Made by a program: the position numbers and the translations under genes. From positions 35,278,001 through 35,342,000 of the forward strand of contig OZ024751.1 of the NCBI GenBank assembly GCA_964016885.1: a DNA stretch of 64,000 nucleotides, in the 5' to 3' direction. This document shows positions 2,766 through 62,125 of this stretch, piece after piece. The stretch is from Eledone cirrhosa. Lineage: Eukaryota. The notes beneath the pieces were generated by a model, which saw nothing but the letters and a program-made list of their open reading frames with translations, had not been told where the DNA came from and made no database searches. Every line of letters starts with the position of its first letter. Position 1 is the first letter of the stretch.

Positions 2766-2839
2766 ATATATATATATCAAGTAAGAATATTTTCGAAACA
2801 GCGAGTGGGTTTGAAACGATTATTATCACCCATGTGTGT

Positions 2840-2911
2840 GATGTGTTGGTGTAAATGGTAGTACAGTGGTCTGGATAACCAAAGATGTGGGTTCGACTCC
2901 CATGTACGTCA
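2840..2911 (+). pseudogene. 72-nt tRNA-like cloverleaf with apparent GGA anticodon (tRNA pseudogene or orphan SINE head)
   Basis: Acceptor gatgtgt/gtacgtc (three G-U pairs), D arm gtgt/gtac, anticodon arm gtggt-ctGGAta-accaa, T arm gtggg-TTCGACT-cccat. It lacks the long variable arm expected of tRNA-Ser. Confidence 0.45.
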
Positions 2912-3009
2912 ATACTCATCTTTTTCCATTTCTCCGAGGATTCTTAACCCCACTATCAGGCTAAATAATTTCTTTAATTTCTTTAGTCAAAATACGGCGA
3001 TAGCTTACA

Positions 3010-3166: not shown

Positions 3167-3424
3167 TCGATTCGTTTCAATAATGCAAACAAGCCTCATT
3201 TTATACATATATATATATATATGTGTGTGTTGTGTGTGAGAGAGAGAGAGTGGGTGTGTGTTAGATAATTCCGAAGGAAAAGCAAAGGGAAAAAGAGTGC
3301 TCTATGTACAGAACAGAGCTATTTAATTAGAAAGTGAAGAACACAAAATATAACTACTCCATTACCAAAGGTTTCTGGAACATAAGTACTTGTATATATC
3401 ACTGTTATAACTTTTATATAGATG

Positions 3425-3509
<85 letters not shown>

Positions 3510-4031
3510 ATTGTATGAATCCATCTGATTCTGTGTTTGTTTCTGCATGTCACCGTATCCAAGTTAGTTTATTTGTTCATGAACGGATAAATAAATATTT
3601 TATTACATTTGAGCTGACGACCCACCATAAGCCATTAGATCTTCCACTGTGTACTCAATGATTGCTAGAGCTGTAATCGACTGTTATTGATCTCCATTCT
3701 CTCATATACTATTCTTATATTAATTCTCTTTATCCCCTCTCTTGATTTTTTATAATTTCCCTTTTTTCAAAAACTCTTTTGGGACCTCGAAAAGAAATTA
3801 AAACTTGAAAGAAACAAACAAAATGGTTGTTTTATATTTAAAAAATTTCAATTGAACTTATAAAGAGAAGGTATTACTGTTGTTGTTATTGTTGTTGAGC
3901 CCCAGATCAACCGTGTTCAAATCGTTTCAGCCATGACCATCCAGTCCATATTTGTCAAGCATAGTGTAGATCTATATTTTCTAATATATATATATATAGA
4001 CTACTCAATACTTAGGGTAGTAGAGTGGGTA

Positions 4032-4155
4032 ATAGGAAAATGTTCAAGACCCCGACGGCAGAGCTCAAGCCGTTTCGACTGCTATTTCTGGACGTCCAGA
4101 AATAGCCGTCGAAATGGCTTGAGCTCTGCCGTCGGGGTCTTGAACATTTTCCTAT
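4032..4155. repeat. Long palindrome (62-bp arms, no loop, 2 mismatches) made from the 3' half of a hammerhead-like motif in a Penelope-like terminal fragment
   Basis: ataggaaaatg...ctggac|gtccag...cattttcctat. Each arm reads gtc-GAAA-yggc-ttgagctct-gccg-TC-ggggtc. Confidence 0.85.
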
Positions 4156-4262
4156 ATATATATATATATATAAATGAAGTAATTCCATGGGAAAGGTTCA
4201 GGAAAAAAGAGTGCTCTATGTAGGCTACAGAGCTTATTAGTTATGTAATAAACAACATAAGA

Positions 4263-4323
4263 TTCAGAATTCTGACGACTGAAAACAGATACATCTGCTT
4301 TCAAGAAACCACTGGTAAATGAA
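4263..4323 (+). ncRNA. Type I hammerhead ribozyme motif (family C)
   Basis: att-CTGACGA(4272-4278)-c-tgaaaacagat-ac-atctgctttca-a-GAAA(4305-4308)-ccactgg-TA-aat. Stem II is long; stem I is short and bulged. Confidence 0.6.
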
Positions 4324-4417
4324 ATAATTATCTTATGTTGTATATATATATATATATATATATAAATGGCTTCTACAGGACTAGAAGTGTTTCATTCGGT
4401 GGAAATCATCAAATTCG

Positions 4418-4459
<42 letters not shown>

Positions 4460-4600
4460 CGAAGGAGTTGTGGGAAGTAACCAGGTGGACCATAACGCAC
4501 CAGAGTACTCAATACTTAAGGTAGTAGAGTGGGTAATAGAAGAAAGTAGTCCAGAAATAGCCGTCGAAACGGCTTGAGCTCTGCTGTCGGGGTCATACTT

Positions 4601-4645
<45 letters not shown>

Positions 4646-4721
4646 TTCAAAATATTAATAAATGTAGACATTCTCGTAATCAAAATAATTGATTAATCAA
4701 TGAACCTTGTTTAACTTTTGG

Positions 4722-4803
<82 letters not shown>

Positions 4804-5403: not shown

Positions 5404-5577
5404 AAATACAAGTTAATATAAATTAATATATGATAAACACATAAGTGTTTGTATTGTAAAAGACGAAGTTAGCTAGAATAAAATAAACTATTAGTTTATT
5501 TCATTCTAGCTAACTTCGTCTTTTACAATACAAACACTTATGTGTTTATCATATATTAATTTATATTAACTTGTGTT

Positions 5578-5578
<1 letters not shown>
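5404..5578. repeat. Long AT-rich palindrome (87-bp arms, 1-nt loop, 2 mismatches)
   Basis: aaatacaagttaatata...aaacta-t-tagttt...tatattaacttgtgttt, centred on 5491. Confidence 0.9.
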
Positions 5579-5646
<68 letters not shown>

Positions 5647-5773: not shown

Positions 5774-5830
<57 letters not shown>

Positions 5831-5872
5831 ATGATATTAAATAAATGGAAACTATATTTATAAAACCATATT

Positions 5873-5933
5873 TATTCAATTATATATATTTCAAGGGTAC
5901 CAAAACTTTGGTACGCTTTCATCAGATAAAATA
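5873..5933 (-). ncRNA. Type I minimal hammerhead ribozyme motif (family A)
   Basis: Minus strand: tattttat-CTGATGA-aagcgtaccaaagttttggtaccctt-GAAA-tatata-TA-attgaata. Stem I has one mismatch and one G-U pair. Confidence 0.7.
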
Positions 5934-5993
5934 CAAATTTTGTTTTATAAATTTTGACATAACCAAGAAAAGATACCTTAACGGTTCAAGTGT

Positions 5994-6155
<162 letters not shown>

Positions 6156-6734
6156 TATATACATGGAAAAAGATAACCCCGACGACTGAGCTCCGGCCGT
6201 TTCGACAGCTAGATCTAGCTGTCGTGGTCCTGACTCTTTTCCTATTACCCACTCTACTACCCTAAATATTGAGTACTCTGGTGCGTTATGGTCCCTCTGG
6301 TATCTTACCACACCCTCATTGTTGAGAAAGAGGGGGATTGCGAGGGAGGGGATGATTCTCGGGTCCCAAGTAATAGTGGGTGGAATAAGCGGGTGGGGGG
6401 GTCGAATAAGCAGGAGGAAAGGAAAAAGTAATTTTTCTAGGTTGTCTCCGTTTGTCAGAATTAGTCGTTTAGTTTGAGACCCCCAACCAGACACATGAGC
6501 CTCTGACATTTAACCAAAGATATAACTTTACCTAAAAGGATGAATTCCACATGAAATCCACCAAACTCTTGTTCCATTCAAGATAATCCCATTGGTGATA
6601 GCCACGTTATGGATATATTGAGGAATCTGACCCAAGCAAACCCTGGATGTGCTAATGGTTGTACTGTCGATGGTTGTCTTAATGACATACTGAGAAGTAG
6701 AACTCAATGAGTAAATCGCCAAGAGCACTTCGTC

Positions 6735-8013: not shown

Positions 8014-9309
8014 GCTGGTCTTGTGCCACAGCTAGAAAGAATTGTTATACCATGTTCACACTTAGCCGCAGTCATGGTACAAGTGCACAAAGGAAGTGCA
8101 TCTTGTGGTGTAAGCTGCAAAATAACGTGCATTGTCTCCATAAGTGATAAACTTGAACTTCTGTACAAACTGTAAGAAACTTCTGTACAAACTGTGAGAA
8201 AATTTGATGAATTATGTTATGTTGGCGTCTCAGTAATGCATGACATAAACAAAAAGAAAACAATTACCCGAGTGTTTTTACTAACAATGGATCAAAGAGA
8301 AAGATTGTACGTGAGGAAAACAATGAGAAACAGGAAACATTGAGAACAGCACGAAACACTGATAACAGGGTTTAAACTCTGCATAATTAATGACGTTTAA
8401 CTGTTTGGTGAAGGAACAAGCTCAAATATATCATGCTAGAAATAGCAGCCAAAAATATATTATGAAGGACTGGAACTTGATTGAGCGGATGATTACAGCA
8501 AAGGTTGGCTTTATAATTTCTATTTTGCGACATAGCTTAAGGTGTCGTGCAAAGTGTGGTGCTAGGCTCAAGTTGCTAAAAAATAGCAGCCAAATCTAAC
8601 ATTTATCACGAGAAACTAGACCTAGAGTATGATTGGGATTATGGTGAAGGCTGGTTTCATCATTTTATCGTGAGGTTGAGGTGTGTAGCTTAGTTGTTAG
8701 AGTGGCGAGTTGTGTTATTAGCAGGACACTGCTCCGCGTTGTTCCAGTCCAGTCAACTGGAAAACAAAACGAGTTGTAGCTGTAATTCTATGGCACATAG
8801 AATTCATAGAATTCATAAATGATTTACCATAAGTTTGACTTTCCGAGGCACAATCTTGGCCAAGGTGTTTTTTGGAAGAGCAGCAGTCACCCATGTTGGT
8901 CAGCCTACACTCTCCTCTCCACCGATGTTGTCCATGGTAAAGACAAAAACTGATACAGCTAGGCACCAGCTGAATAGACTCAGATAATTTGAAATAAAGT
9001 GTCTTGCTCAAAGATTGTGTGATCCGGAGATTGAACTCACGGTCCTACGGTGGTGGGCCAGTCACTCTAACCATTAAGCCACACCTTCACTTGCAACAAA
9101 GACGAGTGAAGATAATGTGGAAGAATCGAGATGATTCTCTAAGCAATATCTATTAATATCCAGATCTACAGGTGTGTGTGTTTCTCTGTGGTATTTTCTC
9201 CCTGCCAACCTATTGATACATACATACACACATACATACATACACACATACATACATACATACATACATACATACATACATACATACATACATACATACA
9301 TACATGATG

Positions 9310-9645
9310 GCTGCCCCCCTCGTTATCGAGTATGGCCATTGCACGATATACCATTATTAATAATTATTAATTAATGCTATCGTGCAATACCTGTGCGTCA
9401 AGATATTTTTTAAAGTGAGGAAAGACTGTGCACTGAGCCAATCCCACTCTCTGACCGACAGTAGCTATAACCTGAAAAGAAGAAAAGATCAACATCATCG
9501 GTAACTACTGAGCTGCAGGTTTTATATCGGAGTTATCCCAGTTTCCTGAGTTGCCTTCTCCTAGAAGAATGCCCTGACAAAGGCTAGGGTCCTTCACTCC
9601 CAGTGGTTTAACCGCGCGATCGGGTGTCCAGCCTGACTATTTCTA
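9310..9645. mobile_element. About 335-bp dispersed repeat, unclassified non-autonomous element (copy 1)
   Basis: End-to-end highly similar to 42527-42862, with a diverged relative on the opposite strand at about 47700-47860. Internal hairpin attgcacgata...tatcgtgcaat. Confidence 0.75.
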
Positions 9646-17015: not shown

Positions 17016-18253
17016 TTATGAATAATAATCCTCCTCGTCAAAATCTATTTCATTCTGTTCTTCCGATTTACTTATCTGTTGTAACCATTGTTTTATACGA
17101 CCTTCTTGCAAAGCTTTGCTCCCGACACGGGACCTGACGAGGGGTGACCTGCAACCTGTATCATACACTTCCTCAAAAGAACGTCTCGATTGAGCCGGAA
17201 TTGGTGCTAGTGTATCGTCTAGTCTACAACTGGACGGAAGAGGTAAGTTCCGATGAGGGGATGTAGGTGCTGCGTCTGTGCCATCCGCTTTCTCCGAGTC
17301 TATCACTTCACCTTCCATGCTGCGTTCCATTTCAGCTTCGGGGAGACTGTCCGGTTGGCCATCCTTTAGATTGGACCAGGAACGTGAGTTTCTCCTCATA
17401 CAGGTCGGTAGTTCCTGTGAATGTTCCGGGTTGGAGAGGTGTCGACGTAACATGTTAGAGCGCTGAGTCATAAGGCCGCCTAATTCACCGAGTCTTTCCA
17501 TGTAGGAAGTGGTGTCGGACGAATCGTTGGAAATTAATCCGATGCTCCGTGCAGTACAGTCGCTGTTGAGAGAGATAGCACTGCCCACTCGGCTTCCTTC
17601 CCTCAGGTAATTCGAAGTGCCGAATGTTGATAACCAGCAGTAGCCCGTATCGTTAGGAGATTCTCGTAAATTTAAATCTAGGTTCATTGAGCGCCGACTC
17701 ATGCGTGGTGAGCAGTAGAGTCTTAGTGCGTGGTCAGAATCGTCCCGGGAACCGGTGCGTTCCATTTTGTCATCGTACGGATCGTCCGAAGTGTCTGCCT
17801 CGACGGAAAGATTCGGTAAACTGACAGCCGGGATGCCGAGGTCCGTCGGAGACTTGGAGTTTCCGATTGAAGTAGCGTCGTCGTTACGGTCGACTATGTT
17901 GAGCATAATTCTAGGAACAGTGGCCGCTCGTTCGGACATCGGGTTGCGCTGTACTTTCAGTTGGACACGCTGGGGTTCGTCTTCCGGCCCCACCACTACA
18001 TCAGGACCCAGGAGAGGGACACTAACATTGTTTTTGGTAAGAATTGGGTCGGCAGATTTTCTTCCTTGACGATACATAGTAGTATCTGTAATTGACGATA
18101 TTGTTGGTGGTGGTGGTGGTGGTGACGGTGGTTGTTGTGGTGGTGTTGGTGATGAAGATGGTGGCGGAGGCGGAGACGAGGACGAAGACAACAGGGGTGG
18201 TTGTGTCTGTTGCTGTTGTTGTTGTTGTTGTTGCTGTTGTTGCTGTTGTTGTT

Positions 18254-18284
<31 letters not shown>

Positions 18285-18308
18285 TTGTTGTTGTTGTTGC
18301 GACGCCAT
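17016..18308 (-). CDS. Uncharacterised, probably disordered protein (430 aa from MASQ31...; ORF open from 18374), single coding or terminal exon
   Basis: About 1.1 kb of non-repetitive, GC-richer, stop-free sequence in a repeat-dominated window. N-terminal Q31 and Pro/Ser tract, many SP/RxxS motifs, C-terminal RIKQWLQQI and acidic tail. Candidate acceptor ttgccag just upstream of the ATG. No domain recognised. Confidence 0.8.
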
Positions 18309-18449
18309 AGTGAATGTTGTAAAAACTGGCAACACAACAGACGACACACAACAAACGCTGCACAACAGATGCAAGATGTACAGCTAGTGCTGTACAAGGC
18401 AGCAACTGCAGGAAGATGCTACAGTAACACAATCACTGCCATCACCATC

Positions 18450-22034: not shown

Positions 22035-22077
<43 letters not shown>

Positions 22078-22232
22078 CGAAGGAATTGTGGTAAGGAACC
22101 AGATGGACCATAACGCACCAGAGTACTCAATACTTAGGGTATACCACCACCACCACCACTATATATATATATGTGTGTGTGTATGTGTGTGTGGATGGAT
22201 GTATGGACGGATGAATAGATATATATATTTAT

Positions 22233-22322: not shown

Positions 22323-23366
22323 ATTTCTTTTATTTGCCACTAGGGCATCAAAAGTGGGACAAGTACAATGGGGGGAGTTTACACAAAAAGGCGTCCTCAA
22401 TAAGGAGGAGGCAATAACAAAATATAAAAATAAAATAAGATATAACAAAAAATAAAATTTTTAACAAAATCCTCAATAGAGAGGAGGCGCCTTGGGGGGT
22501 CGCACACACCCCCGAAAAAAGTGTGCAACCCTTCTCCTCAGGAGCACAGAGAAGGGGTGCTCCCTTGGTCTTTCATCTTCCTCACCTATAGTCTGATGTA
22601 GAGTGAAGGCCCATTCACACGGGCCATTCTCGCCACTTTCACCCATCTTTCATAGAAACGGCTGGGGTGCAGCACCTCTCTCTCCATCCTGATCCTTCTT
22701 CCGAAATGATATCGGAAGAAACGGACCAGTTGTTGGCCAGAGAGAAAGGTGCCCGACCTCAGTCCTTTCAGACGCGTCCACCATACAACCTCTTTCGCCA
22801 TGGCTATTATGCACAGAAACACCGCCTCTGCTTCATCTTTGAAGGGGGGAGGCGGCTTGATCATTACAATAGACTCGGTGGTCAACCGGATCGGTCCCAC
22901 CCTTGACAGCAGTTGTTCGACATAGCCCCACAGATCGGCTACGCCCGAGCAGTGTACTAATGCGTGTGCAACGGTTTCCTCGTCGCACACGCATCTGGGA
23001 CAGATCTTTTTGGCGGGGTCCCTACCCGGGCGCCCGTGTCTGTAGAGCCTTTCTCGAACGGGTAAAGCCCCTCGGTAGCACTGCCAGGCCAGGGACTTCT
23101 GGAAGTTGTCCATAGGTCCCGGGCTGAATGTCCTACCGAACAGGCTGGCCAGTTCGTCCTCCTCCATGTCTAGGGCTTCTCCGAGGGCGTCGTCGCACCT
23201 GCTGCGTACCAGCCCTCTATAGAATGTTGCGGTGGAGTCTCCACTGACAACCGGATCCGCCTGCCAGAGGGCGGTGAGCGCCTGGGCACACTCAGTGTGC
23301 CAGGCGCCCAGTTTTCTCGGTCTTTGCTTGACCCAGGATTGCAGCTCGGTGAGTGAGACGAGTCTG
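22323..23366 (-). mobile_element. 5'-truncated Tx1/L1-type LINE (ORF2 C-terminus with Cys/His zf-RVT-like motif, plus 3' UTR) flanked by (GATA)n
   Basis: Translation ...FQKSLAWQCYRGALPVRERL...CPRCVCDEETVAHALVHC...LWGYVEQLL..., stop at 22586. AATAAA precedes (TCTA)n; (GATA)n also occurs at the 5' junction (23367-23399). Confidence 0.9.
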
Positions 23367-23399
<33 letters not shown>

Positions 23400-23785
23400 C
23401 GATGTTCAGCAGCCGGGTGAGAAGGGACGGTAAGTCTGTGACGGTGACAGATGTGGTTGAAGATGTAATGTAGAACGCTTCTGTAGAACAGATCAAGGAA
23501 ACAAAGCATTCTATACAATATACAGTGATGGAATATTCTAGTATAGTTATCTTCAGTTTCTTTCATACCATTGGCTTCCAATCTCGCAATGGGCGCAGAC
23601 TGTGCCTTACGCATGTGTGATGTTAGGCAACTGAACGATGGCTGACTAAATTTTATATAACGTAGAGTTACGTTATAACGTAGAGTTACGTTATATATAA
23701 TGTGTTAACAATATCACTAATAGTTTCAAAAATAATTACAAGGGCCAATAATTCTATCAGGTCTAAAATCATCAGAGACGTATTG

Positions 23786-24429: not shown

Positions 24430-24547
24430 TATTGATGGACGTGAGAATGAGTACTCAATACCGAAGTAGAGTTTAAACGTTCATTTATCTCTAAGTGGTG
24501 AGCCTTGTTACTCTGGAGTTTCACCTGTATATTCACAGGATCACCAG

Positions 24548-24677
<130 letters not shown>

Positions 24678-29564: not shown

Positions 29565-29642
29565 GGCAGCCACGTGCGGCGGCGATTTATATGATATAAT
29601 ATATAATATAATATAATGTAATATAATAAATATATATATATA

Positions 29643-29885
29643 TTTAAAGGTTAAACAAGGCTCAATGAATAAACCAAAGAATGAGGTATATAAATATTGA
29701 GTTTTGTCATATCTTATTCACTACCATGACTGAATCTTAACCATCTACTAAGTCAGGGTATGTCATGCATCAGCTTATTTTATCTGATGAGGAAGTACAG
29801 TTGAAGAAAGCTCAGTACCTCTGAAATATGTATAATAAAATATACTTGATCACACGAATGTCTATTTTTGTTAATATTTTGAATT
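29643..29885 (+). mobile_element. Penelope-like terminal-repeat fragment (family A) carrying a hammerhead
   Basis: Homologous in reverse orientation to about 32985-33243, with related pieces at about 4640-4722, 5826-5985, 56560-56760 and 61961-62070. All are bounded by (TA)-rich runs. The Penelope assignment is inferred from ribozyme type; no RT or GIY-YIG ORF was seen. Confidence 0.65.
29776..29842 (+). ncRNA. Type I minimal hammerhead ribozyme motif (family A)
   Basis: tattttat-CTGATGA(29784-29790)-ggaagtac...gtacctct-GAAA(29823-29826)-tatgta-TA-ataaaata. Perfect 8-bp stem I; predicted cleavage after 29834. Confidence 0.75.
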
Positions 29886-29899
29886 AATTATATATATAT

Positions 29900-30111
29900 A
29901 TAAATAAATTATACAATTATCAAAGTTGTGTTCAAATCATTTAATAGTTGACAATCGTTTCTTCCAAACTCTCGTTTGGAATCATCGGAGCATTATCAAT
30001 ATGTGCAAACATTGATAATGCTCCGATGACTCTAAACTAGAGTTTTGAAGAAACGATTGTCAGCTATTAAATGATTTGAACACAACTTTGATAATTGTAT
30101 AATTTATTTAT
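29900..30111. repeat. Long inverted repeat (about 101-bp arms, 10-nt loop), each arm holding a hammerhead-like motif with a CCGATGA core
   Basis: Minus arm: gct-CCGATGA-ttccaaac-gaga-gtttggaa-GAAA-cgattg-TC-aac. Plus arm: gct-CCGATGA(30023-30029)...GAAA(30050-30053)-cgattg-TC-agc. Confidence 0.85.
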
Positions 30112-30235
30112 TTAACTGCTCTGTAAAACAACTGATGTTCATACATTGAGCTATTTCTCTTACTGGTAATAAGGTAATTAAGAAATTACTGACCTTCCTA
30201 TTTATAGTTGTTTATACTATATACATAACTATAAA

Positions 30236-30278
<43 letters not shown>

Positions 30279-31009
30279 TATATAATAATTTCACCAATTT
30301 TTTCATTTATTCTTTATTCTCTATTTATTATTTATTTTCTGTTTTCTTCATTTATTGCCTTCTATCTCTTCATATACATGGAAGAACCCCCACCACCACC
30401 ACCACCACTACGGGAGATGGTGGCGGGAGGGATGAAAAAACACACACAGATACTTCTAAATTGTCAGCAGCAGCAAGACATAAGCTGACCACAACACCAA
30501 CAACACTACCAAAATAAGGGTAGAGGTCTGATGTACTTAACAATAACAAACACTACAGGGAGCCTCACCCCAGAAAGAATTTCTATAGACTTCTGACTGA
30601 GGAATGCTCTCAAAACTGACCAATGGGAAGTTTGACATTTTTTTGTTATTTTGTTCCTTTACCACCTTGTTCCTTCTACCACTTTATCAATTTTTTAAGC
30701 TAACCCCAACAATAACAACACTACCAACTCAAGAATTGAAGTCAGATGTACCTAACAATAACAAGAACAACAACTACAGATTGGCTTGCCTCAGAACGAA
30801 TTCCTATAGACTTTTGAATGAGGAATGTTCTAACAACTGACCAATGAGAGGAGAAGAGGCCCTTTGACACTGAAATTCGTTTGTTTGAATTCATATGATT
30901 CCAGTTCCTCAGTGAAATAACAACCCAACCAGGAACTGGGCATATCAGAGTATTGACAAAATTATACACCTCAACAACATATGTACTTGTCTATACCACA
31001 CTAATTCGG

Positions 31010-31072
31010 ACTGCCTGAAGAGGTCACAGCCAAAGAGCCAAAGATGGCTGTCACCGAAATATATATAGCAGT
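31010..31072 (+). ncRNA. Type I minimal hammerhead ribozyme motif (family D), best-preserved copy
   Basis: actgc-CTGAAGA-ggtcacagcca-(12 nt)-tggctgtcacc-GAAA-tatata-TA-gcagt: 5-bp stem I, 10/11-bp stem II with G-C closure, palindromic stem III. Confidence 0.8.
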
Positions 31073-31118
31073 AATAAACGAAGCTAAATTTTAAACATTT
31101 GACTTATTTATTTTACTT

Positions 31119-31173
<55 letters not shown>

Positions 31174-31504
31174 TGAAATTCGTATGCAAGCCGGTACGGC
31201 TCGTTTTGAGCACACAACCCGGAATAACTTACCTATATATATATATATATATAAATCAGGAGTGTTGGATATAAACTTAGCAATAAAGTTTGACATATAT
31301 ATATAGAGAGAGAGAGAGAGAGAATAGAAAACAAAAAATCAGTGCTGCATCTGAACTCAATTTATTGTGTGTTACAATTGTTTCCCCGGCGGACAGCTCG
31401 AGACGCGATCATTGTGTGGATCTGTCTGATTCTGGACCCGCAGGTTCGACGGACACGTCTAATGATTTCGGACAATATTCTCTCATATATATATATATAT
31501 ACAT

Positions 31505-31657
31505 ATAGTTATGTAATAAACAACATAAGATAATTATTTCATTTACCAGTGGTTTCTTGAAAGCAAACAAATCTGATGACTGAAAGCAGATTTGTTTGCT
31601 TTCAAGAAACCACTGGTAAATGAAATAATTATCTTATGTTGTTTATTACATAACTAT
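31505..31657. repeat. Perfect inverted repeat (71-bp arms, 11-nt loop) centred on a hammerhead core (family C)
   Basis: Arms 31505-31575 and 31587-31657. The plus strand reads CTGATGA(31573-31579)-ctgaaagcagatttgtttgctttcaa-GAAA-ccactgg-TA. Flanking sequence to about 31722 is the reverse complement of 4172-4250. Confidence 0.9.
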
Positions 31658-31722
31658 TAAGCTCTGTAACTTGAATAGAGCACTCTTTTTTCCTGGACCT
31701 TTCCGACGGAATTACTTCACAT

Positions 31723-31759
<37 letters not shown>

Positions 31760-31874
31760 TACACATGTACATACATATAAATGCATATACATAATATAGT
31801 CACACTCAACTATCGCAAGAATCTAGTATGCTATTGAATATTGACCTTACTAGTTTAATACTGGTGTGGGAGAG

Positions 31875-31945
<71 letters not shown>

Positions 31946-32048
31946 AAATGTGCACATGGAAAAAAATGGTATAAACGACAAATAAATACAAATATCTCAA
32001 CTCCTCTTCAACCACTGCCTGGAAATACAATTTCGTACATCATTATTA

Positions 32049-32232
32049 TTGGCAGTATCGGTAGAGGGTCTGACGCCATGCTTTACAGCAAAGTGTTACG
32101 GCCCTTTATGGTCTGAGTTCAAATCCTGCCGAGGTTAACTTTGCTTTTCATCCTAAAGGGGGTCGATAAAATAAAGCACCAGTCATACACTGGAATAATT
32201 GCTGGCCTTGTGCCAAAAGTAGAAACGATTAT
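32049..32232 (+). mobile_element. Near full-length tRNA-derived SINE
   Basis: A-box-like tggcagtatcgg, B-box gagttcaaatc, family core, 3' end gccaaaagtagaaacgattatt. Confidence 0.85.
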
Positions 32233-32593
32233 TCTAGCCAAGTCCTACATATAATATATATATATTATATATATATATAAGGGTAAGCTTGACATATATA
32301 CATCTGACTGTGTATACATACACACAGATGGTAATCTACCGCCAAAATTAATTGTTCCCACGTGACCAAACTACGTAGGTATTAACCCAATTATTGCTTT
32401 TTTTGCATTGATATTTTATTGTCTATCTCTGTCTGACTGTTGTTGTCGTTGTTGTTGTTGTTTCGGTAACTGCTACTGTTTAGCCCCAGGTCAGTTCTCA
32501 TCCAAGAAATCTATGGTCAACCATTTCCGACCTAATTTTCTTCTTCGCTCTGAGTGTTTCTCCCTCACGACACACACGTATTTATACAAAGAT

Positions 32594-32689
<96 letters not shown>

Positions 32690-32739
32690 GGAGGGAGGGG
32701 TATACAAAGATATATATATGTATTTATACAAAGATACAT

Positions 32740-32773
<34 letters not shown>

Positions 32774-32817
32774 GGAGGGAGGGGTATACAAAGATATATA
32801 TGTATTTATACAAAGAT

Positions 32818-32867
<50 letters not shown>

Positions 32868-32944
32868 GGAGGGAGGGGTATACAAAGATATATATATATA
32901 TATACTTCCAGATTGTAACATTGTGATGTTACCGCATCTTAACC

Positions 32945-32989
<45 letters not shown>

Positions 32990-33029
32990 TCAAAATATTA
33001 ACAAAAATAGAACTTCTTGTGATCAAGTA

Positions 33030-33096
33030 TATTTTATTATACATATTTCAGAGGTACTGAGCTAACTTCAACAGTACGTCTTCATCAGATAAAATA
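33030..33096 (-). ncRNA. Type I minimal hammerhead ribozyme motif (family A)
   Basis: Minus strand: tattttat-CTGATGA-agacgtactg...cagtacctct-GAAA-tatgta-TA-ataaaata. Confidence 0.75.
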
Positions 33097-33232
33097 AATG
33101 ATGCATGACATACCCTGACATAGTAGATGGTTAAGATCCAGTCATGGTAATAACTCCGGAAAACCATGTCTGTTGAGTGCTTCCAATCTATTCTAAAACT
33201 AATTCTTTGATTTATTCATTGAACCTTGTTTA

Positions 33233-33364
<132 letters not shown>

Positions 33365-34237: not shown

Positions 34238-35115
34238 GGTACACCCACACAGACATCCACAGACATACATTAACACACAAGCTCACACATGTTTATAGCA
34301 GCCAGACACATCCACCATATATACATCTATACATATACACGGATGCACATACACACACATAATCCATACACACACATACATACATAGATCCATACACATA
34401 CACACGCATCCACATACATACATTGACACACAAACACATAAACACATACACATATGTTTCTATATCCAGACATATCCACGACATTTCTAATGTCAGCAGT
34501 GACCTGCAGCACCCCCCCTCCCTCCCCCCACACCCCTCCTATATTGATTTCTCGAAATATCTCAACCGTGCTTAAACATCAAATGCCATTTACAATAATT
34601 TTAAATATAAATTTATGTTTATGTTTGTTTTTAGTTTTTATTTCACTTCATTTTTTGTCACTATTTGTTAGTTATTAGTTTTTTATACTCTAAACAATTC
34701 TATTTTCCCAGCCACAATACATCTTATACATTTACTTGCTGGTTCTTTCATCACCATTTCACTAAGTGTGTTAAAATTCTACGATTACCTGATGAGGTCC
34801 CATGAAGCAAGTCCGGATTTGTCTCTTTCCGAAATAATTTAAATTCTAGTCTCTTACCTCAATCCACTTTATATAATCTATATTATACATTTATTTAGTG
34901 ATACCCCCATCACTACTTTGGTTAGTACGGTGGAAGTATATCATTGCCTGATGAGGTCCTATGAAGACGGATCTTGTTTAATAATTGTTTCTACTTTTGG
35001 CACAAGGCCAGCAATTACCCCAGTGAATTACTGGTGCTTGATTTTATTGACCCCGGAAAGATGAAAGGCAGCTAATTAATTTGTCTCCCGTTCTTTTTGA
35101 AATAATTTTATCAGA

Positions 35116-42365: not shown

Positions 42366-42526
42366 TACATATATATATACATATCATATATATATATCAT
42401 ATATATATATGGATTTTCGAATTGGAGTTTCACCCCGAAACTGGTTACCAACCCGGAGTAAACCTGAACTTCCACCAGGAAATCTTTCGTATAATTGAAA
42501 TTTTCTTTGCTTCTATATACGTGATA

Positions 42527-42862
42527 GCTGTCCCCTCGTTATCGAGTATGGCCATTGCACGGTATACCATTATTAATAATTATTAATTAATGCTATCGTG
42601 CAATACCTGTGCGTCAAGATATTTTTTAAAGTGAGGAAAGACTGTGCACTGAGCCAATCCCACTCTCTGAGCGACAGTAGCTATAACCCGAAAAGAAGAA
42701 AATATCAACATCATCGGTAACTACTGAGCCGCAGGTTTTATATTGGAGTCATCCCAGTTTCCTGAGTTGTCTTCTCCTAGAAGAATACCCTGACATGGGC
42801 TAGGGGTTCTTCACTCCCAGTGGTTTAACCACGCCATCGGGTGTCTAGCCCGACTATTTCTA
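42527..42862. mobile_element. About 335-bp dispersed repeat (copy 2)
   Basis: Colinear with 9310-9645, with nearly the same end points. Confidence 0.75.
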
Positions 42863-43736: not shown

Positions 43737-44826
43737 TTCTTTATTAGCCACAAGGGCGCTCAAGAAAAGGGGACAATACAAAGACATGCCGGGGATTTTA
43801 CATACAGTCGTGTAAAAAATATAAAAACAATTACAACAATCGAAATCCCCAATAGGGGGGAGGCGCCACAAATGGGTTGTTTAATACCCCATAGATAGAA
43901 CAACCCTCAACTCCAGGAGCGTGTTGTGCAAGTGCTCCTTTCTTCCTTTTGCTCTCTTCCTCAACCTACAGGCTTATAAACAGAGAAGGCCCAATCACTC
44001 AGGCCATTTTTGCTTCATTCACCCACCTTTCAGTAAATTTACTGGGGTGCAGTGCCTCTCTCTCCACCCTGATTCTCCTTCTAAAGTGATACTTAAAGAA
44101 GGGAATCAATTGTTGTCCGGAAAAAAAGGCATCTGTCCTCAGTCCTCTCAACCTCGTCCACCATATAACTTCTTTCACCATAGCCACCGTACAGAGGAAA
44201 ACCGCCTCTCTTTCGTTTTTGAAAGAGGCTGGCGGTTTGATCCTTACTATGGACTCGGCAGTCAACTGGATTTGTCCCATACGCGACAGCAGTTGTTCTG
44301 CATAGTTCCACGGGTCAGTTACGCCCGGGCAGTGTACAATTGCGTGCAGGACTGTTTCAATGTCCTGCGCACATCTTGGACACGTCCTCTTGGAAGGATC
44401 CCTGCCGGGGCGTCCGTGCCTGTAGATCTTGTCACGAACCGGTAGAGCTCCTCGGTAGCACTGCCAGGCCAGGGACCTCTGGAAGTTGTCCATAGGTCCC
44501 GGTGGGAAAGTTCTACCAAATAGACTGGTGAGCTCATCGTCTTCGACGCCCAGAGTCTCTCCGAGCACGTCGTCGCCCTTGTAACGTACAATCCCTCTAT
44601 AGAATGTCGAAGTGGAGTCTCCACTGATTGCTGCGCCCGCTTGCCAGAGGACTGTGAGCGCCTGAGCGCATTCAATGTGCCAGGTGCCCATCGTTTTCGG
44701 TCTTTTCTTCACCCAGGACTGCAGCTCCGTTAGCGAGACGAACTGTGGGAAAGCCTGTCTCACAAACGGTGCCCACACCGGTTGGAGGTCGGTGAGGAAT
44801 ACCTGGAGATGCCGCAGCCTCAGCGC
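43735..44826 (-). mobile_element. 5'-truncated Tx1/L1-type LINE between (GATA)n tracts, with a premature stop at 43999
   Basis: ALRLRHL...FQRSLAWQCYRGALPVRDKI...CPRCAQDIETVLHAIVHC aligns with the 22323-23366 copy; natural TAG at 43966-43968. Confidence 0.9.
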
Positions 44827-44896
<70 letters not shown>

Positions 44897-44940
44897 GTTT
44901 CTTTATTAGCCACAGGGGTACAAAAGAAGGGGACAAATAC

Positions 44941-44942
<2 letters not shown>
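44897..44942 (-). mobile_element. Very short 3' stub of the same LINE between (GATA)n tracts
   Basis: gtttctttattagccacaggggtacaaaagaaggggacaaatacaa matches 43441-43487. Confidence 0.8.
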
Positions 44943-44979
<37 letters not shown>

Positions 44980-45066
44980 GTGGGTGGGTGGATATATAGA
45001 TGGATAGATAAATAGACAGTACACGTGTATTTTTGTGTGTGTGTATATATGTGTGTGTGTGGGATG

Positions 45067-45107
<41 letters not shown>

Positions 45108-45134
45108 ATTATATATGTGTGTGTGTGTGTGCGA

Positions 45135-47391: not shown

Positions 47392-47549
47392 GGGGGGTTA
47401 TGTACACAACCGCGACGACGCAAAAAGGTTTCTGCGGTTTGTGGTCACCCTCCCCCCGGATGTCACCCTCCCCCCGGGTGTCCCCCTCCCCCGGGTGTCA
47501 GCTCCACAGTTCCCCCCCCCCTCTCTCTCAATATATAAATATATATTAT

Positions 47550-47643
47550 AAAGAGTCTGACACCGACGGCAGAGCTGTTGTCGTTTAAACAGCTAGTAAC
47601 TGTTAAAATGGCAAGAGCTCAGCCGTCGGTGCCAGACTTTTTT
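47550..47643. repeat. Imperfect long hairpin related to 4032-4155 (family B Penelope-like end)
   Basis: aagagtctgacaccgacggcagagct...agctcagccgtcggtgccagactttt, followed by ctctgctaccccaagtattgagtactc shared with 4000-4030, 4500-4535, 6245-6285 and 22120-22140. Confidence 0.7.
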
Positions 47644-48445
47644 TAATTTAACCCTACTCTGCTACCCCAAGTATTGAGTACTCTGTTGTGCAAGAGGCTT
47701 CTAGTCTTCGTTAAGACATTTCTCGAGGAGGAGAAAGTCACTCTGATATAAAACTTTGTTTGTATCCAATAATGTGGACCAGGTCTTCTTTTTGGGGGGT
47801 AAATACATTGAATGTCCAGAGAGAGGGATTGGCTCCGTGCAAAGCCTTTCCTCACTTAAACAAGCTTCAAACATAGGCATCGCTTGATATGTGACATTTT
47901 TTGCAATGCATGGTATTGCTGGCCACAGGCAAGTCCCTAACAGGACTAGGAAGTCACGTCCGTGATGCCCATGCTTAAGTATCAAGCGAAGGCTTGACTC
48001 CCCCTGGATAGGACGCCAGTTTAACGCAGGGTTAAGCCCCTATCTATTGCTGGTACTCATTTTCAGCTGAGTATACTGAAGCAACGTGAAATGGACTGGT
48101 TTTTGCTCAAGAACACAACACACAACCCAGCCCAGGAATCGAACCGACGACATTATGGTTGTATCTAACACCCTTACCACTAGGCCACGCACATCCACAC
48201 ACAGAGACACACACACATATATATGTCAACCTCTCTCTCGCTCTAACTCTCTCCCATTGTCTATCTATCAGTCTCACTCTCTCTCCCCATCCTCTCTCTA
48301 ACCCTCTCCCATTGTATATCTATCAGACTCTCTCTCCATAACTCTCTCCCATTGCCTATTTATCAATCTCTCTCTCTCTAACTCTCTCCCATTGTCTATC
48401 TATCAGTCTCTCTCTAACTCTCTCCCATTCTCTATCTGTCAGCCT

Positions 48446-56518: not shown

Positions 56519-56559
<41 letters not shown>

Positions 56560-56696
56560 CCAAAGTTTATATGGTTCGTTGATTATTCAACGAATACAAT
56601 TTTACAATAGATTAGAAGCACTCGACAGTAATTTTTCTGGAGTATATATTATTCAAAATATTAATAAATGAAAAATATTCTCATAACCAAAATATA

Positions 56697-56759
56697 TATT
56701 TTATTATACGTATTTCAAAGGTACAATGGTGTTTAAGTACATTTTCAGCAGATAAAACA
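56697..56759 (-). ncRNA. Degenerate hammerhead motif (family A; core CTGCTGA)
   Basis: Minus strand: tgttttat-CTGCTGA-aaatgtac...gtaccttt-GAAA-tacgta-TA-ataaaata. The core is mutated, so it is probably inactive. Confidence 0.55.
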
Positions 56760-56792
56760 TATAAGAGATTGTATATGTGACATACCGCTACA

Positions 56793-56845
56793 GTTTTGAT
56801 TATTCAATTCCAATAGTGCCACTATTGGAATTGAATAATCAAAAC
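56793..56845. repeat. Perfect hairpin, 26-bp arms, 1-nt loop
   Basis: gttttgattattcaattccaatagtg-c-cactattggaattgaataatcaaaac. Confidence 0.9.
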
Positions 56846-56913
56846 CGGAGCAGTATATATATATATGTGTGTGTCTGTGTGTACATATGTATATATATAT
56901 ATATATATATGTC

Positions 56914-58765: not shown

Positions 58766-59534
58766 TCTTATAATAGGCTGGTTAAATAGATTCACCATCA
58801 CTAATTTGTGTAAGTTCATAAAATCATTTGAATAACAGGGGAGGTAAGTCTGTTAGGTCAATCAACTTCATTTAAGTAACCTAACTTGTTTTATGACTAT
58901 ACTTTATGTGACACAGATAATGTGACACGGGTAGTGTGATACAGGTAGTGTGACACAGGTAACGTGACACAGGTAATGTTTGATTCTTTGTTTATATTCT
59001 ACTCACCAATAGATAAAGCTTCAAAATGAAACGTGAGAGATCAGTCACACTTTGGTGTAATGGTAACCCAGCTATCCAGCATACAACAGGTGTGAGATCA
59101 ATTCTCACAGACAACGCTGTCCCCTATTTCTCTCTCTAGAGACATAAATGTCCAACTTCTTCGACTATTTTTCAGTCTATAAACATACATTGAAGTAGCT
59201 TCCTTTAAACAAACTTTCAAAATTCAAAATTTGCTCAAAACTTCATAAATATTCTTAGTTATAATTAAATTTTGTTCCCCATATTTCATGAAATTAAAAC
59301 TAACTTTGAAATTAAATATAATTATTAAGTCCAATAAAATAATTGTATATAAATAAAAACCTATAAATATATAAATATAAATAAATGAATATATATATAG
59401 AATGAAAATAAATATATAAAAAAATAAGCATCTTAAAGCTATTTTCCCATCTAAAGCAGAGATGAGCTGGACAAGTAACCTTTTTGAGTTACCTCATACA
59501 AGAGACAGAGATACAGTCTACCTGATATAGACAT

Positions 59535-61720
59535 GGGTACAAGTGTACTTATTGTATACCAGATATACACAGGGGTACAAGTGTACCTACTGTATACCAG
59601 ATATACACAGGGATACAGTGTACCTATTGTATACCAGATATACCCAGGGATACAGTGTACCTACTGTATACCAGATATACACAGGGGTTCAAGTGTACGT
59701 ATTGTATACCAGATATACACAGGGGTACAAGTGTACCTACTGTATACCAGATATACTCAGGGATACAGTGTACCTACTGTATACCAGATATACACAGGGG
59801 TACAAGTGTACCTACTGTATACCAGATATACACAGGGGTACAAGTGTACGTATTGTATACCAGATATACACAGGGATACAGTGTACCTACTGTATACCAG
59901 ATATACACAGGGGTTCAAGTGTACGTATTGTATACCAGATATACACAGGGGTACAAGTGTATCTACTGTATATCAGATATACACAGGGGTACAGTGTACC
60001 TATTGTATACCAGATATACACAGGGCTACAGTGTACCTACTGTATACCAGATATACACAGGGGTACAAGTGTACCTATTGTATACCAGATATACTCAGGG
60101 ATACAGTGTACCTACTGTATACCAGATATACCCAGGGGTACAAGTGTACCTACTGTATACCAGATATACACAGGGGTACAAGTGTACCTACTGTATACCA
60201 GATATACACAGGGGTACAAGTGTACCTACTGTATACCAGATATACACAGGGGTACAAGTGTACCTATTGTATACCAGATATACCCAGGGGTACAGTGTAG
60301 CTATTGTATACCAGATATACACAGGGGTACAAGTGTACCTACTGTATACCAGATATACACAGGGGTACAAGTGTACCTACTGTATACCAGATATACACAG
60401 GGGTACAAGTGTACCTACTGTATACCAGATATACCCAGGGGTACAGTGTAGCTATTGTATACCAGATATACCCAGGGGTACAAGTGTACCTACTGTATAC
60501 CAGATATACACAGGGGTACAAGTGTACCTACTGTATACCACATATACACAGGGGTACAAGTGTACCTACTGTATACCAGATATACACAAGGGTACAAGTG
60601 TACCTACTGTATACCAGATATACACAGGGGTACAAGTGTACCTATTGTATACCAGATATACCCAGGGGTACAGTGTAGCTATTGTATACCAGATATACAC
60701 AGGGGTACAAGTGTACCTACTGTATACCAGATATACACAGGGGTACAAGTGTACGTATTGTATACCAGATATACACAGGGATACAGTGTACCTACTGTAT
60801 ACCAGATATACACAGGGGTTCAAGTGTACCTACTGTATACCAGATATACACAGGGGTACAAGTGTACCTATTGTATACCAGATATACACAGGGGTACAAG
60901 TATACCTACTGTATACCAGATATACACAGGGGTACAAGTGTACCTACTGTATACCAGATATACACAGGGGTACAAGTGTACCTACTGTATACCAGATATA
61001 CACAGGGGTACAAGTGTACCTACTGTATACCAGATATACACAGGGGTACAAGTGTACCTACTGTATACCAGATATACACAGGGGTACAGTGTACCTATTG
61101 TATACCAGATATACACAGGGGTACAAGTGTACCTACTGTATACCAGATATACACAGGGGTACAAGTGTACCTATTGTATACCATATATACACAGGGGTAC
61201 AAGTGTACCTACTGTATACCAGATATACACAGGGGTACAAGTGTACCTATTGTATACCAGATATACACAGGGGTACAAGTGTACCTACTGTATACCAGAT
61301 ATACACAGGGGTACAAGTGTACCTATTGTATACCAGATATACACAGGGGTACAAGTGTACCTACTGTATACCAGATATACACAGGGGTACAAGTGTACCT
61401 ACTGTATACCAGATATACACAGGGGTACAAGTGTACCTACTGATACCAGATATACACAGGGGTAGAAGTGTACCTACTGTATACCAGATATACACAGGGG
61501 TACAGTGTACCTACTGTATACCAGATATACACAGGGGTAGAAGTGTACCTACTGTATACCAGATATACACAGGGGTACAGTGTACCTACTGTATACCAGA
61601 TAAACACAGGGGTTCAAGTGTACGTATTGTATACCAGATATACACAGGGGTACAGTGTACCTACTGTATACCAGATATACACAGGGGTACAGTGTACCTA
61701 CTGTATACCAGATATACACA
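59535..61720. repeat. About 2.2-kb intronic 37/38-bp minisatellite, about 58 units
   Basis: ggggtacaagtgtacctactgtataccagatatacaca, with a 37-bp variant lacking one A. Confidence 0.97.
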
Positions 61721-62076
61721 GTTTCAATATATATAAACAATAAACAAAGGAGTGGTTTGAGAAAAGAACAGAAGTTGAGAAATGTACATTTTCTCTGTTT
61801 CTTACATTTGTTAGAGAGGAAAAAAACGTTTCATTAACTCTTCATTGTTAAAAACGTTACAAGCTTTTCATTCATAAATTCCCACGTCTTTCTATCACTC
61901 TCTCTTTCTCCCTCTCCCTTTCACCCTCTCCCCCTCTCTCTCTCTCTATATATATATATATTAAAGAGTTAAACTAGATTCAATGAGTACATCAAAGAAT
62001 AAGTTTTACAGTAGATTGGAAGCACTCTACAAGAAATATTTTCCAGAGTTATTAATATTAAAATACAAATATTAAT

Positions 62077-62125
<49 letters not shown>

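What the first reader, a model, noticed from the sequence alone, without database searches (positions are those of the whole stretch)
29776..33096. Cluster of minimal type I hammerhead ribozymes from several unrelated families within 3.3 kb
Seen: complete stem I-CUGANGA-stem II-GAAA-stem III-UH-stem I motifs at 29776-29842(+), 31010-31072(+) and 33030-33096(-), an intact core at 31573-31618(+), and a CCGAUGA pair at 29944-30064. More occur at 4263-4323(+), 5873-5933(-) and 56697-56759(-), with decayed ones at about 3360-3410(-) and 24503-24548(-). Stem sequences differ completely between families while pairing is kept. Established: minimal type I hammerheads with a 1-bp stem III closed by a palindromic loop (tacgta/tatata/cgatcg-like) are typical of Penelope-like element terminal repeats and retrozymes, and cleave as dimers. 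Inference: this genome hosts several HHR-bearing non-autonomous retroelement families; about 10 motifs in 64 kb implies a very large genome-wide number.
Basis: partly seen in the sequence, partly recalled or inferred. Interest (0 to 1): 0.8.

Follow-up and report, generated by a model that had tools for sequence, protein, structure and literature searches.

The report
Penelope retroelement stubs carrying hammerhead ribozymes
The hammerhead self-cleaving RNA motifs in this stretch of animal DNA (likely an octopod) are real and sit in short repeats, often partly flipped, inserted at TA microsatellites; they are likely leftover 3' ends of Penelope-like jumping genes, a known kind, and cleavage is untested.

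Summary
The motifs are real: 4 strict type I hammerheads in the window against none in 100 shuffles, with compensatory stem changes. The 'unrelated families' claim is half wrong: 29776(+) and 33030(-) are one family (216/244 identical), which also includes 5873 and 56697. The 3.3 kb holds four families (A twice, B, C, D). They are not tandem retrozymes. Family A copies end at two fixed points, about 56 and 145 nt after the cut site, and in three copies the ~90-nt tail between them is inverted in front of a 5'-truncated arm. B and D form head-to-head arms, one longer than the other. Nearly all abut (TA)n. This matches the known Penelope-like insertion signature. Public reads suggest roughly 10^4 or more family A copies. 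No RT or GIY-YIG gene was found in the window, so autonomy is open. The cluster is not a working unit: partners lie on opposite strands, and density is explained by TA tracts. Small new details: a conserved N·C mismatch in stem II in two families, and tails about three times longer than described. Verdict: new members of a known kind.

The parts
29644..29684 (-). Family A copy A1: inverted terminal ~40 nt of the 3' tail
   Evidence: matches the tail arms of A2 and A7; 348 reads leave the stretch at 29685 and go on as the A2-type tail
29685..29888 (+). Family A copy A1: 5'-truncated arm with type I hammerhead (C3 29784, H17 29834), ending 54 nt after H17 at (TA)n; stem II decayed, predicted to misfold
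29897..30000 (-). Family D left arm: CCGAUGA-core hammerhead (C3 29988, H17 29950), ends about 50 nt after H17 at (TA)n
30011..30235 (+). Family D right arm: CCGAUGA-core hammerhead (C3 30023, H17 30061), 96/101 identical to the left arm; followed by ~120 nt more before a microsatellite (possible tail, inferred from one copy)
30930..31110 (+). Family C copy C1: best-formed hammerhead (C3 31015, H17 31067), G10.1-C11.1, C·C mismatch in stem II, ends at (TA)n; 5' boundary approximate
31508..31572 (-). Family B copy B2: inverted short arm without the core's 5' half and without most of the tail
31573..31722 (+). Family B copy B2: arm truncated at the CUGAUGA core (H17 31618), with full tail ending 104 nt after H17 at (TA)n; no stem I
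32984..33150 (-). Family A copy A2: 5'-truncated arm with intact hammerhead (C3 33088, H17 33038), ending 54 nt after H17
33153..33240 (+). Family A copy A2: whole ~90-nt tail, inverted relative to the hammerhead arm
34700..35115 (+). Degenerate head-to-tail pair of cores (34789, 34948; 159-nt spacing; 64/92 identical), the second split by a SINE-like insert at 34977-35070; no intact UH or stem I
56558..56800 (-). Family A copy A3: colinear upstream-hammerhead-tail order; core mutation A6C (C3 56751, H17 56705)
61962..62078 (-). Family A copy A7: colinear 3' piece across the tail boundary, no hammerhead
5819..5961 (-). Family A copy A4: diverged, tail-less, hammerhead at C3 5925, H17 5881
4640..4723 (.). 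Family A copy A5: inverted tail end joined to the last ~48 nt before the first 3' end; no hammerhead
4175..4342 (.). Family B copy B1: head-to-head arms; + arm has the core (C3 4272, H17 4317), - arm has the tail
3262..3412 (-). Family B copy B3: colinear, heavily decayed
24503..24548 (-). Lone decayed hammerhead (A6G, 4-bp stem III, 5' side replaced by microsatellite); no relative in the window

Best explanation
The motifs are type I hammerhead folds inside short repeats of four families inserted at (TA)n, and they are likely 5'-truncated, often partly inverted 3' ends (pseudo-LTR pieces) of Penelope-like retroelements. Shown: core, stems and covariation; family membership; two fixed 3' ends in family A (about +56 and +145 nt from the cut site); inverted arms with variable junctions; (TA)n flanks; very high abundance in public runs of the same species label. 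Inferred: a Penelope-type RT/GIY-YIG protein nicks both strands of a TA tract and starts reverse transcription at either of two sites downstream of the ribozyme, so one insertion can have a tail-bearing arm and a tail-less arm head to head. In the source element the ribozyme would cut only as a dimer, or with protein help, through an 8-bp helix III formed by two palindromic loops. The copies here would be mostly inert, and the cluster is likely a pile-up of independent insertions in TA-rich DNA.
For: Motif excess 4 vs 0 in 100 shuffles. 93.7% of 95 cells paired and 11 of 19 pairs with two-sided change, against 27-53% paired for slid controls (5 sequences; 3 of these pairs change within family A alone). 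Colinear order in two copies and inversion at the tail boundary in A2 and A5. Seven different tail-to-body joints in X1 contigs, one contig each (table 5). Summed depth in X1 rises from 25,137 at 29685-94 to 399,760 at 29775-84, as 5' truncation would give. Head-to-head arms in B1, B2 and D. (TA)n flanks. A lone 15.1-16.1 pair costs 3.8-4.6 kcal/mol in all 4 monomers modelled; the double hammerhead is the predicted minimum for C1 and A3. Literature: inverted 5'-truncated arms, one-sided tails and microsatellite bias (PMC8557442, passages and section 15); two RT start sites downstream of the hammerhead and nicking of both AT-rich strands (PMC11167929 parts 1-2); Penelope-like elements cover 6.83% of O. 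vulgaris (PMC13282606 supplement row).
Against: No RT or GIY-YIG remnant in 110 stop-free ORFs or 9 read-through frames next to three cores, so the link to a Penelope protein is structural only. Tails are about 70-120 nt, not the 30-40 nt described. The colinear order rests on 2 window copies and 1 contig; in A3 the junction holds a short TA run. Rfam hammerhead models did not match. The depth gradient may partly reflect A1's divergent upstream segment. The double hammerhead is not the predicted minimum for A1 or A2.
Confidence: 0.8

Rival explanations
1. They are dispersed monomers of non-LTR retrozymes: short non-coding units whose tandem master arrays lie elsewhere and make circular RNAs.
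For: Monomers are common in retrozyme families (bioRxiv 2026.07.22.740005 parts 1-3). No ORF nearby. One degenerate 159-nt head-to-tail pair at 34789/34948. A few 'goes back' joints in runs, and a 29837-to-29759 joint of unprinted kind at depth 103 in X1.
Against: 0 of 6 family A loci in the window are tandem. The back-joints rest on 18-29 TA-rich letters and 2-5 read starts each. Copies end at two fixed points well downstream of the cut site rather than being permuted at it.
Confidence: 0.12
2. The 3.3-kb cluster is a selected functional unit, for example ribozymes that process one host transcript or dimerise with each other.
For: 5 of 11 events fall within 3.4 kb: p 0.013 under uniform placement, 0.020 over unmasked bases (post hoc).
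Against: p 0.18 when weighted by TA tracts. A1/A2 and the D arms are on opposite strands and would form double-stranded hairpins, not dimers. A1 has decayed away from the family state.
Confidence: 0.03
3. They are MITE or fold-back DNA transposons whose palindromes mimic ribozyme stems, or chance patterns in AT-rich DNA.
For: B2 and D are long palindromes and sit in TA.
Against: Family A has no terminal inverted repeats. Arms are unequal, with variable centres. The core is kept across families with different stems. 0 of 62 sequence-only pattern matches in viral and metagenome collections had the stems.
Confidence: 0.03

Closest known systems
Hammerhead variants with a small palindromic helix III in pseudo-LTRs of metazoan Penelope-like elements (D. 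virilis type; Cervera and de la Pena 2014, PMC4209133, parts 1-2 read)
   Same: Type I topology, long helix II, an irregularity inside helix II, palindromic loop 3, mostly single dispersed copies, some opposite-strand pairs 100-700 bp apart, thousands per genome
   Different: Here a 1x1 N·C mismatch after the third pair of stem II, in families A and C; family A has A-U or G·U rather than G-C at 10.1-11.1; no linked ORF seen
Poseidon element PAc of Anolis carolinensis (Frangieh et al. 2024, PMC11167929, parts 1-2 read)
   Same: Two fixed 3' ends downstream of the hammerhead, with an optional tail between them; AT-rich targets; both strands extended
   Different: Tail about 90 nt here against the 30-40 bp that paper cites for Penelope copies; no ORF start found in the hammerhead; several insertions have a tail-only inverted arm
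Non-LTR retrozymes of axolotl, mussel, coral and Xenopus (PMC7229834 passages; bioRxiv 2026.07.22.740005 parts 1-3)
   Same: Short non-coding units with a type I hammerhead and weak helix III; up to 120,000 copies in axolotl
   Different: Defined by head-to-tail arrays and circular RNAs; families A, B and D are single or head-to-head here
5' inversion by twin priming in L1 (recalled; one search listed no paper applying it to Penelope elements)
   Same: One insertion made of two oppositely oriented pieces of one RNA with a variable junction
   Different: Here the second start point is fixed within the family, and the target is (TA)n

Membership tests
Type I hammerhead ribozyme | Core CUGANGA, GAAA, UH in order | tested here: met
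   A1, A2, A4, C1, B1, B2 strict; D has U4C; A3 A6C; 24503 A6G
Type I hammerhead ribozyme | Stems I and II pair, with covariation | tested here: met
   93.7% of 95 cells paired, 11 of 19 pairs with two-sided change in 5 sequences; not met for B2 (1 stem I pair)
Type I hammerhead ribozyme | Match to an Rfam hammerhead model | tested here: not met
   no hammerhead row in 35 of 35 or in 150 shown of 399
Type I hammerhead ribozyme | Site-specific self-cleavage | not testable with these tools
   only folding energies
Minimal hammerhead (min-HHR) sensu Cervera 2014 | No helix III or loop 3; unpaired base after A9; G10.1-C11.1 | tested here: not met
   A, C and D have a 6-nt loop, B a 7-nt loop that can pair; G-C at 10.1-11.1 only in C1; they fit that paper's palindromic-helix-III variants instead
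Penelope-like element pseudo-LTR | Hammerhead near the 3' end of the insertion | tested here: met
   arms end 25-174 nt after H17
Penelope-like element pseudo-LTR | 5' truncation and inverted 5'-truncated partner arm | tested here: met
   A1, A2, A5, B1, B2, D; variable joints and depth gradient
Penelope-like element pseudo-LTR | Optional tail at one end (two 3' ends) | tested here: met
   family A ends at +54 to +58 or +141 to +147 from H17; about 90 nt rather than 30-40
Penelope-like element pseudo-LTR | Insertion bias for microsatellites such as (TA)n | tested here: met
   flanks printed
Penelope-like element pseudo-LTR | Linked ORF with telomerase-like RT and GIY-YIG endonuclease | tested here: inconclusive
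   none in 110 ORFs and 9 read-through frames; no genome held; no related loci in metagenomes
Non-LTR retrozyme | Head-to-tail repeats with a hammerhead in each unit | tested here: not met
   0 of 6 family A loci tandem; only the degenerate 34789/34948 pair; weak back-joints in runs
Non-LTR retrozyme | Unit-length circular RNA | not testable with these tools
   no RNA run was available to lay
MITE | Terminal inverted repeats of fixed length | tested here: not met
   family A ends are not complementary; B and D arms unequal

The most novel reading that the evidence does not exclude
An octopod lineage of Penelope-type elements has a distinct hammerhead design (3 bp, an invariant N·C mismatch, then a long stem II, plus a 6-nt palindromic loop III) at 10^4 to 10^5 copies. 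Its insertions record reverse transcription started at two sites ~90 nt apart on opposite target strands in a single event, giving a genome-scale readout of the still unresolved Penelope insertion mechanism.
Probability: 0.35. Interest if true: 0.5.

Novelty: new member of a known kind. Interest (0 to 1): 0.3.

Why it matters
Hammerheads in Penelope-like terminal repeats are well known, and copy numbers of 10^3 to 10^5 are on record, so the main claim is ordinary. What is added: a worked case in a likely octopod genome. My searches listed no paper describing octopus hammerheads, and the main text of the 2026 O. vulgaris repeat annotation never mentions ribozymes. The thousands of inverted junctions implied by the reads could test, from sequence alone, the two-start-site model proposed for Penelope elements in vitro. 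The conserved stem II mismatch is a cheap biochemical question. Inverted copies would also supply long double-stranded RNA if transcribed.

Tried and rejected
No whole genome is held, so no genome-wide count or walk to an ORF. A first descriptor allowing no mismatch in the first 4 pairs of stem II found 0 hits. The repeat finder was swamped by microsatellites. Rfam scans gave no hammerhead row among those shown. A covariance model from 5 copies recovered only those 5 above 21 bits, so it finds no further copy of that design and does not reach B or D. No RNA holder listed among the runs. A family A pattern found 0 stretches in metagenome contigs; a looser pattern gave 5 viral and 57 metagenome matches, 0 of 62 with stems. 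My own early idea of a fixed-length ~250-bp non-autonomous element with a fixed 5' end (note) was rejected once that end proved to be the inverted tail. A 12-bp distal stem I in B1 was rejected as the overlap of two inverted arms. The MAFFT alignment of split arms was poor and not used. No conserved open frame was seen by eye in the family A tail. Lunse et al. (RNA Biol 14:1499) is not held; I know it only from its title and citation in PMC6765202 (passages), and it or its supplements may already list such variants. Scan look-ups by place, by sequence and by a longer word list returned nothing.
Full report
Setting. The window is animal-type DNA, 47% masked as tandem repeats, and no whole genome is held. 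The only named eukaryote among 8 homologues of a LINE-like ORF at 22589-23704 is Argonauta hians at 59% identity. With the microsatellite load, this makes an octopod likely; it is an inference, not an identification.

Observation. A descriptor with the strict core, at least 6 of the first 8 stem II pairs and 5 of 6 stem I pairs finds 4 hits (C3 at 29784+, 31015+, 33088-, 5925-), against a mean of 0.0 and a maximum of 0 in 100 block-wise dinucleotide shuffles. Allowing CCGA adds 30023+, and allowing one core change adds 56751- (shuffled means 0.02 and 0.22). The descriptor was relaxed after a stricter one found nothing; the reason is a mismatch at the fourth position of stem II. On 5 aligned motifs, 93.7% of 95 cells pair and 11 of 19 pairs show a two-sided change, against 27-53% paired for slid partners. 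Most of these changes come from C1 versus family A; three occur within family A. As a control, 0 of 62 sequence-only matches of a similar pattern in viral and metagenome contigs had the stems. Rfam's hammerhead models did not appear in the rows shown.

Families. Self-comparison gives: A = 29784, 33088, 56751, 5925 plus two hammerhead-less pieces at 4640-4723 and 61962-62078; B = 31573, 4272, 3262-3412; D = the two arms at 29897-30114; C1 = 31015. A further pair at 34789/34948 shares the start of stem II with C1, but no similarity to C1 passed z above 4. A1 and A2 are 216/244 identical, so two of the three headline motifs are one family. No A-B-C-D cross pair passed z above 4 (60 shuffles).

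Anatomy. At first family A looked like a 250-bp unit with fixed ends. The copy at 56558-56800(-) shows the true order: upstream part, hammerhead, ~56 nt, then a ~90-nt tail. The piece at 61992-62078 is colinear across the same boundary, and one X4 contig shows that junction too (table 7). In A2 the hammerhead arm ends at +58 from H17 on the minus strand and the tail (+62 to +143) lies on the plus strand. A5 is built the same way from shorter pieces, and A4 ends at +58 with no tail. A1's tail arm scored below the cut-off against A3 but aligns with A2 and A7. In B1 and B2 one arm carries the full tail (104 nt after H17 in B2) and the opposite arm stops early. In D the arms are 96/101 identical, and the right arm is followed by ~120 nt more before a microsatellite. 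Ends mostly abut (TA)n.

Public runs. I laid 4 of 14 listed runs on 29625-29905 at 80% likeness. X1 gave 1,996 contig pieces. Summed depth peaks at 747,117 over the GAAA-to-stem-I segment and is 155,000-238,000 over 29855-29884, while 7 of the 8 longest pieces have depths of 6-35 (one has 87). The tool warns that this is no copy number; taken roughly it implies about 4,000 to 75,000 copies (arithmetic), so 10^4 as an order of magnitude. Depth climbs 16-fold over the 100 nt before the core, as 5' truncation would give, though A1's divergent upstream segment may contribute. Seven distinct joints link the tail end to points between 29725 and 29883, one contig each. In X12, 525 molecules end at 29885 where the depth beside is 678. 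Position 29794 reads C in 196,407 of 196,530 depth in X1 and in 650 of 683 and 376 of 396 reads in X12, so the C·C mismatch in stem II is the family state and A1 is the deviant. C1 has the same mismatch. None of the 40 difference rows shown falls in the catalytic core; 34 rows were not shown. Head-to-tail joints are few and weakly anchored. One joint from 29837 to 29759 (depth 103 in X1, 29 in X4) could be an ~80-nt hammerhead duplication, but its kind was not printed.

Mechanism. Closing the single 15.1-16.1 pair costs 3.8-4.6 kcal/mol in each of 4 monomers modelled. The 8-bp double-hammerhead fold is the predicted minimum for C1 (-42.4 against -35.2 for two monomers) and A3 (-25.5 against -19.0), is beaten by another dimer in A2 (-24.4 against -31.4), and is unfavourable in A1. 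A1's stems have probabilities of 0.01 or less. B2 and D fold as 147- and 218-nt hairpins that bury the motif. So dimer dependence is predicted, but no same-strand intact partner exists in the window: A1/A2 and the D arms are antisense to each other. Clustering (5 of 11 events in 3.4 kb) has p 0.013 under uniform placement and 0.18 when weighted by TA tracts (post hoc).

Comparison with the literature. Cervera and de la Pena 2014 (parts 1-2 of 4 read) report thousands of dispersed single motifs per genome, opposite-strand pairs, a long helix II, and variants with palindromic helix III and a helix II bulge. Craig et al. 2021 (passages and section 15) describe inverted 5'-truncated arms, a 30-40-bp tail often on one end, and microsatellite bias. 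Frangieh et al. 2024 (parts 1-2 of 4) show two RT start sites that define the tail, nicking of both AT-rich strands, and a hammerhead that cleaves only with the element's protein. Retrozymes are defined by tandem arrays (PMC7229834 passages; bioRxiv 2026.07.22.740005 parts 1-3 of 5). Penelope-like elements cover 6.83% of O. vulgaris in 190 families (PMC13282606 supplement row; part 1 of 3 read) and are expanded in coleoids (PMC8967140 passages). Searches for octopus or cephalopod hammerheads, for the stem II mismatch and for twin priming in Penelope elements listed nothing that describes these; they were listings only. Lunse et al. is not held and may cover such variants; bioRxiv supplements were closed and Repbase or Dfam entries could not be checked.

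What is not shown. No RT or GIY-YIG domain was found in 110 stop-free ORFs of mostly unmasked sequence or in 9 read-through frames beside three cores, so membership in Penelope-like elements rests on insertion anatomy. Whether the master copies are autonomous is open; loose ends before 29684-29689 show that other copies continue upstream by at least 30 nt. Cleavage and expression are untested.

Verdict. Real motifs, a known kind of element, one misassigned family relationship, and a cluster without evident meaning. The modest novelties are the host, the conserved stem II mismatch and the long, separately inverted tail. Interest 0.3.

Noticed in passing
window 3998-4152, 4469-4604, 6162-6312, 22077-22141, 47546-47688: A fifth (TA)n-flanked repeat family with head-to-head arms and a tail, like B and D; it has a hairpin followed by GAAA but no recognisable CUGANGA, so it may be another Penelope-type stub truncated inside stem II.
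   Followed up: partly
window 5404-5580 and 56772-56865: Further near-perfect palindromes (97% and 86%) in TA context; the second is the inverted upstream end of copy A3.
   Followed up: partly
window 38500(-): A CUGACGA core with a very short stem and GAAAC but no stem I; no relative in the window.
   Followed up: partly
window 32048-32236 and about 15 other places: A SINE-like family; one copy splits the core at 34948. Its likeness to octopus SINEs is recalled, not tested.
   Followed up: no
window 22589-23704(-) and 44002-45108(-): Two LINE 3' fragments with zf-RVT (PF13966), 76% identical over 787 nt.
   Followed up: partly
window 2839-2912(+): tRNA-Ser(GGA)-like sequence by ARAGORN, 41.9 bits in Rfam; could be a SINE head or pseudogene.
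   Followed up: no
window 17019-18383(-): 455-codon stop-free frame with only weak low-complexity Pfam hits below cut-off.
   Followed up: no
window about 59500-61750: 38-bp satellite array.
   Followed up: no
window 9306-9645 and 42523-42862: 340-bp direct repeat pair, 94% identical.
   Followed up: no
window 29837 to 29759, runs X1 and X4: Contig joint that may be an ~80-nt tandem duplication of the whole family A hammerhead; kind not printed (table 5c).
   Followed up: no
family A, +40 to +58 and +125 to +147 from H17: The two 3' ends look alike by eye (both U-rich then AU-rich), as if an RT start signal were duplicated; not tested statistically.
   Followed up: no
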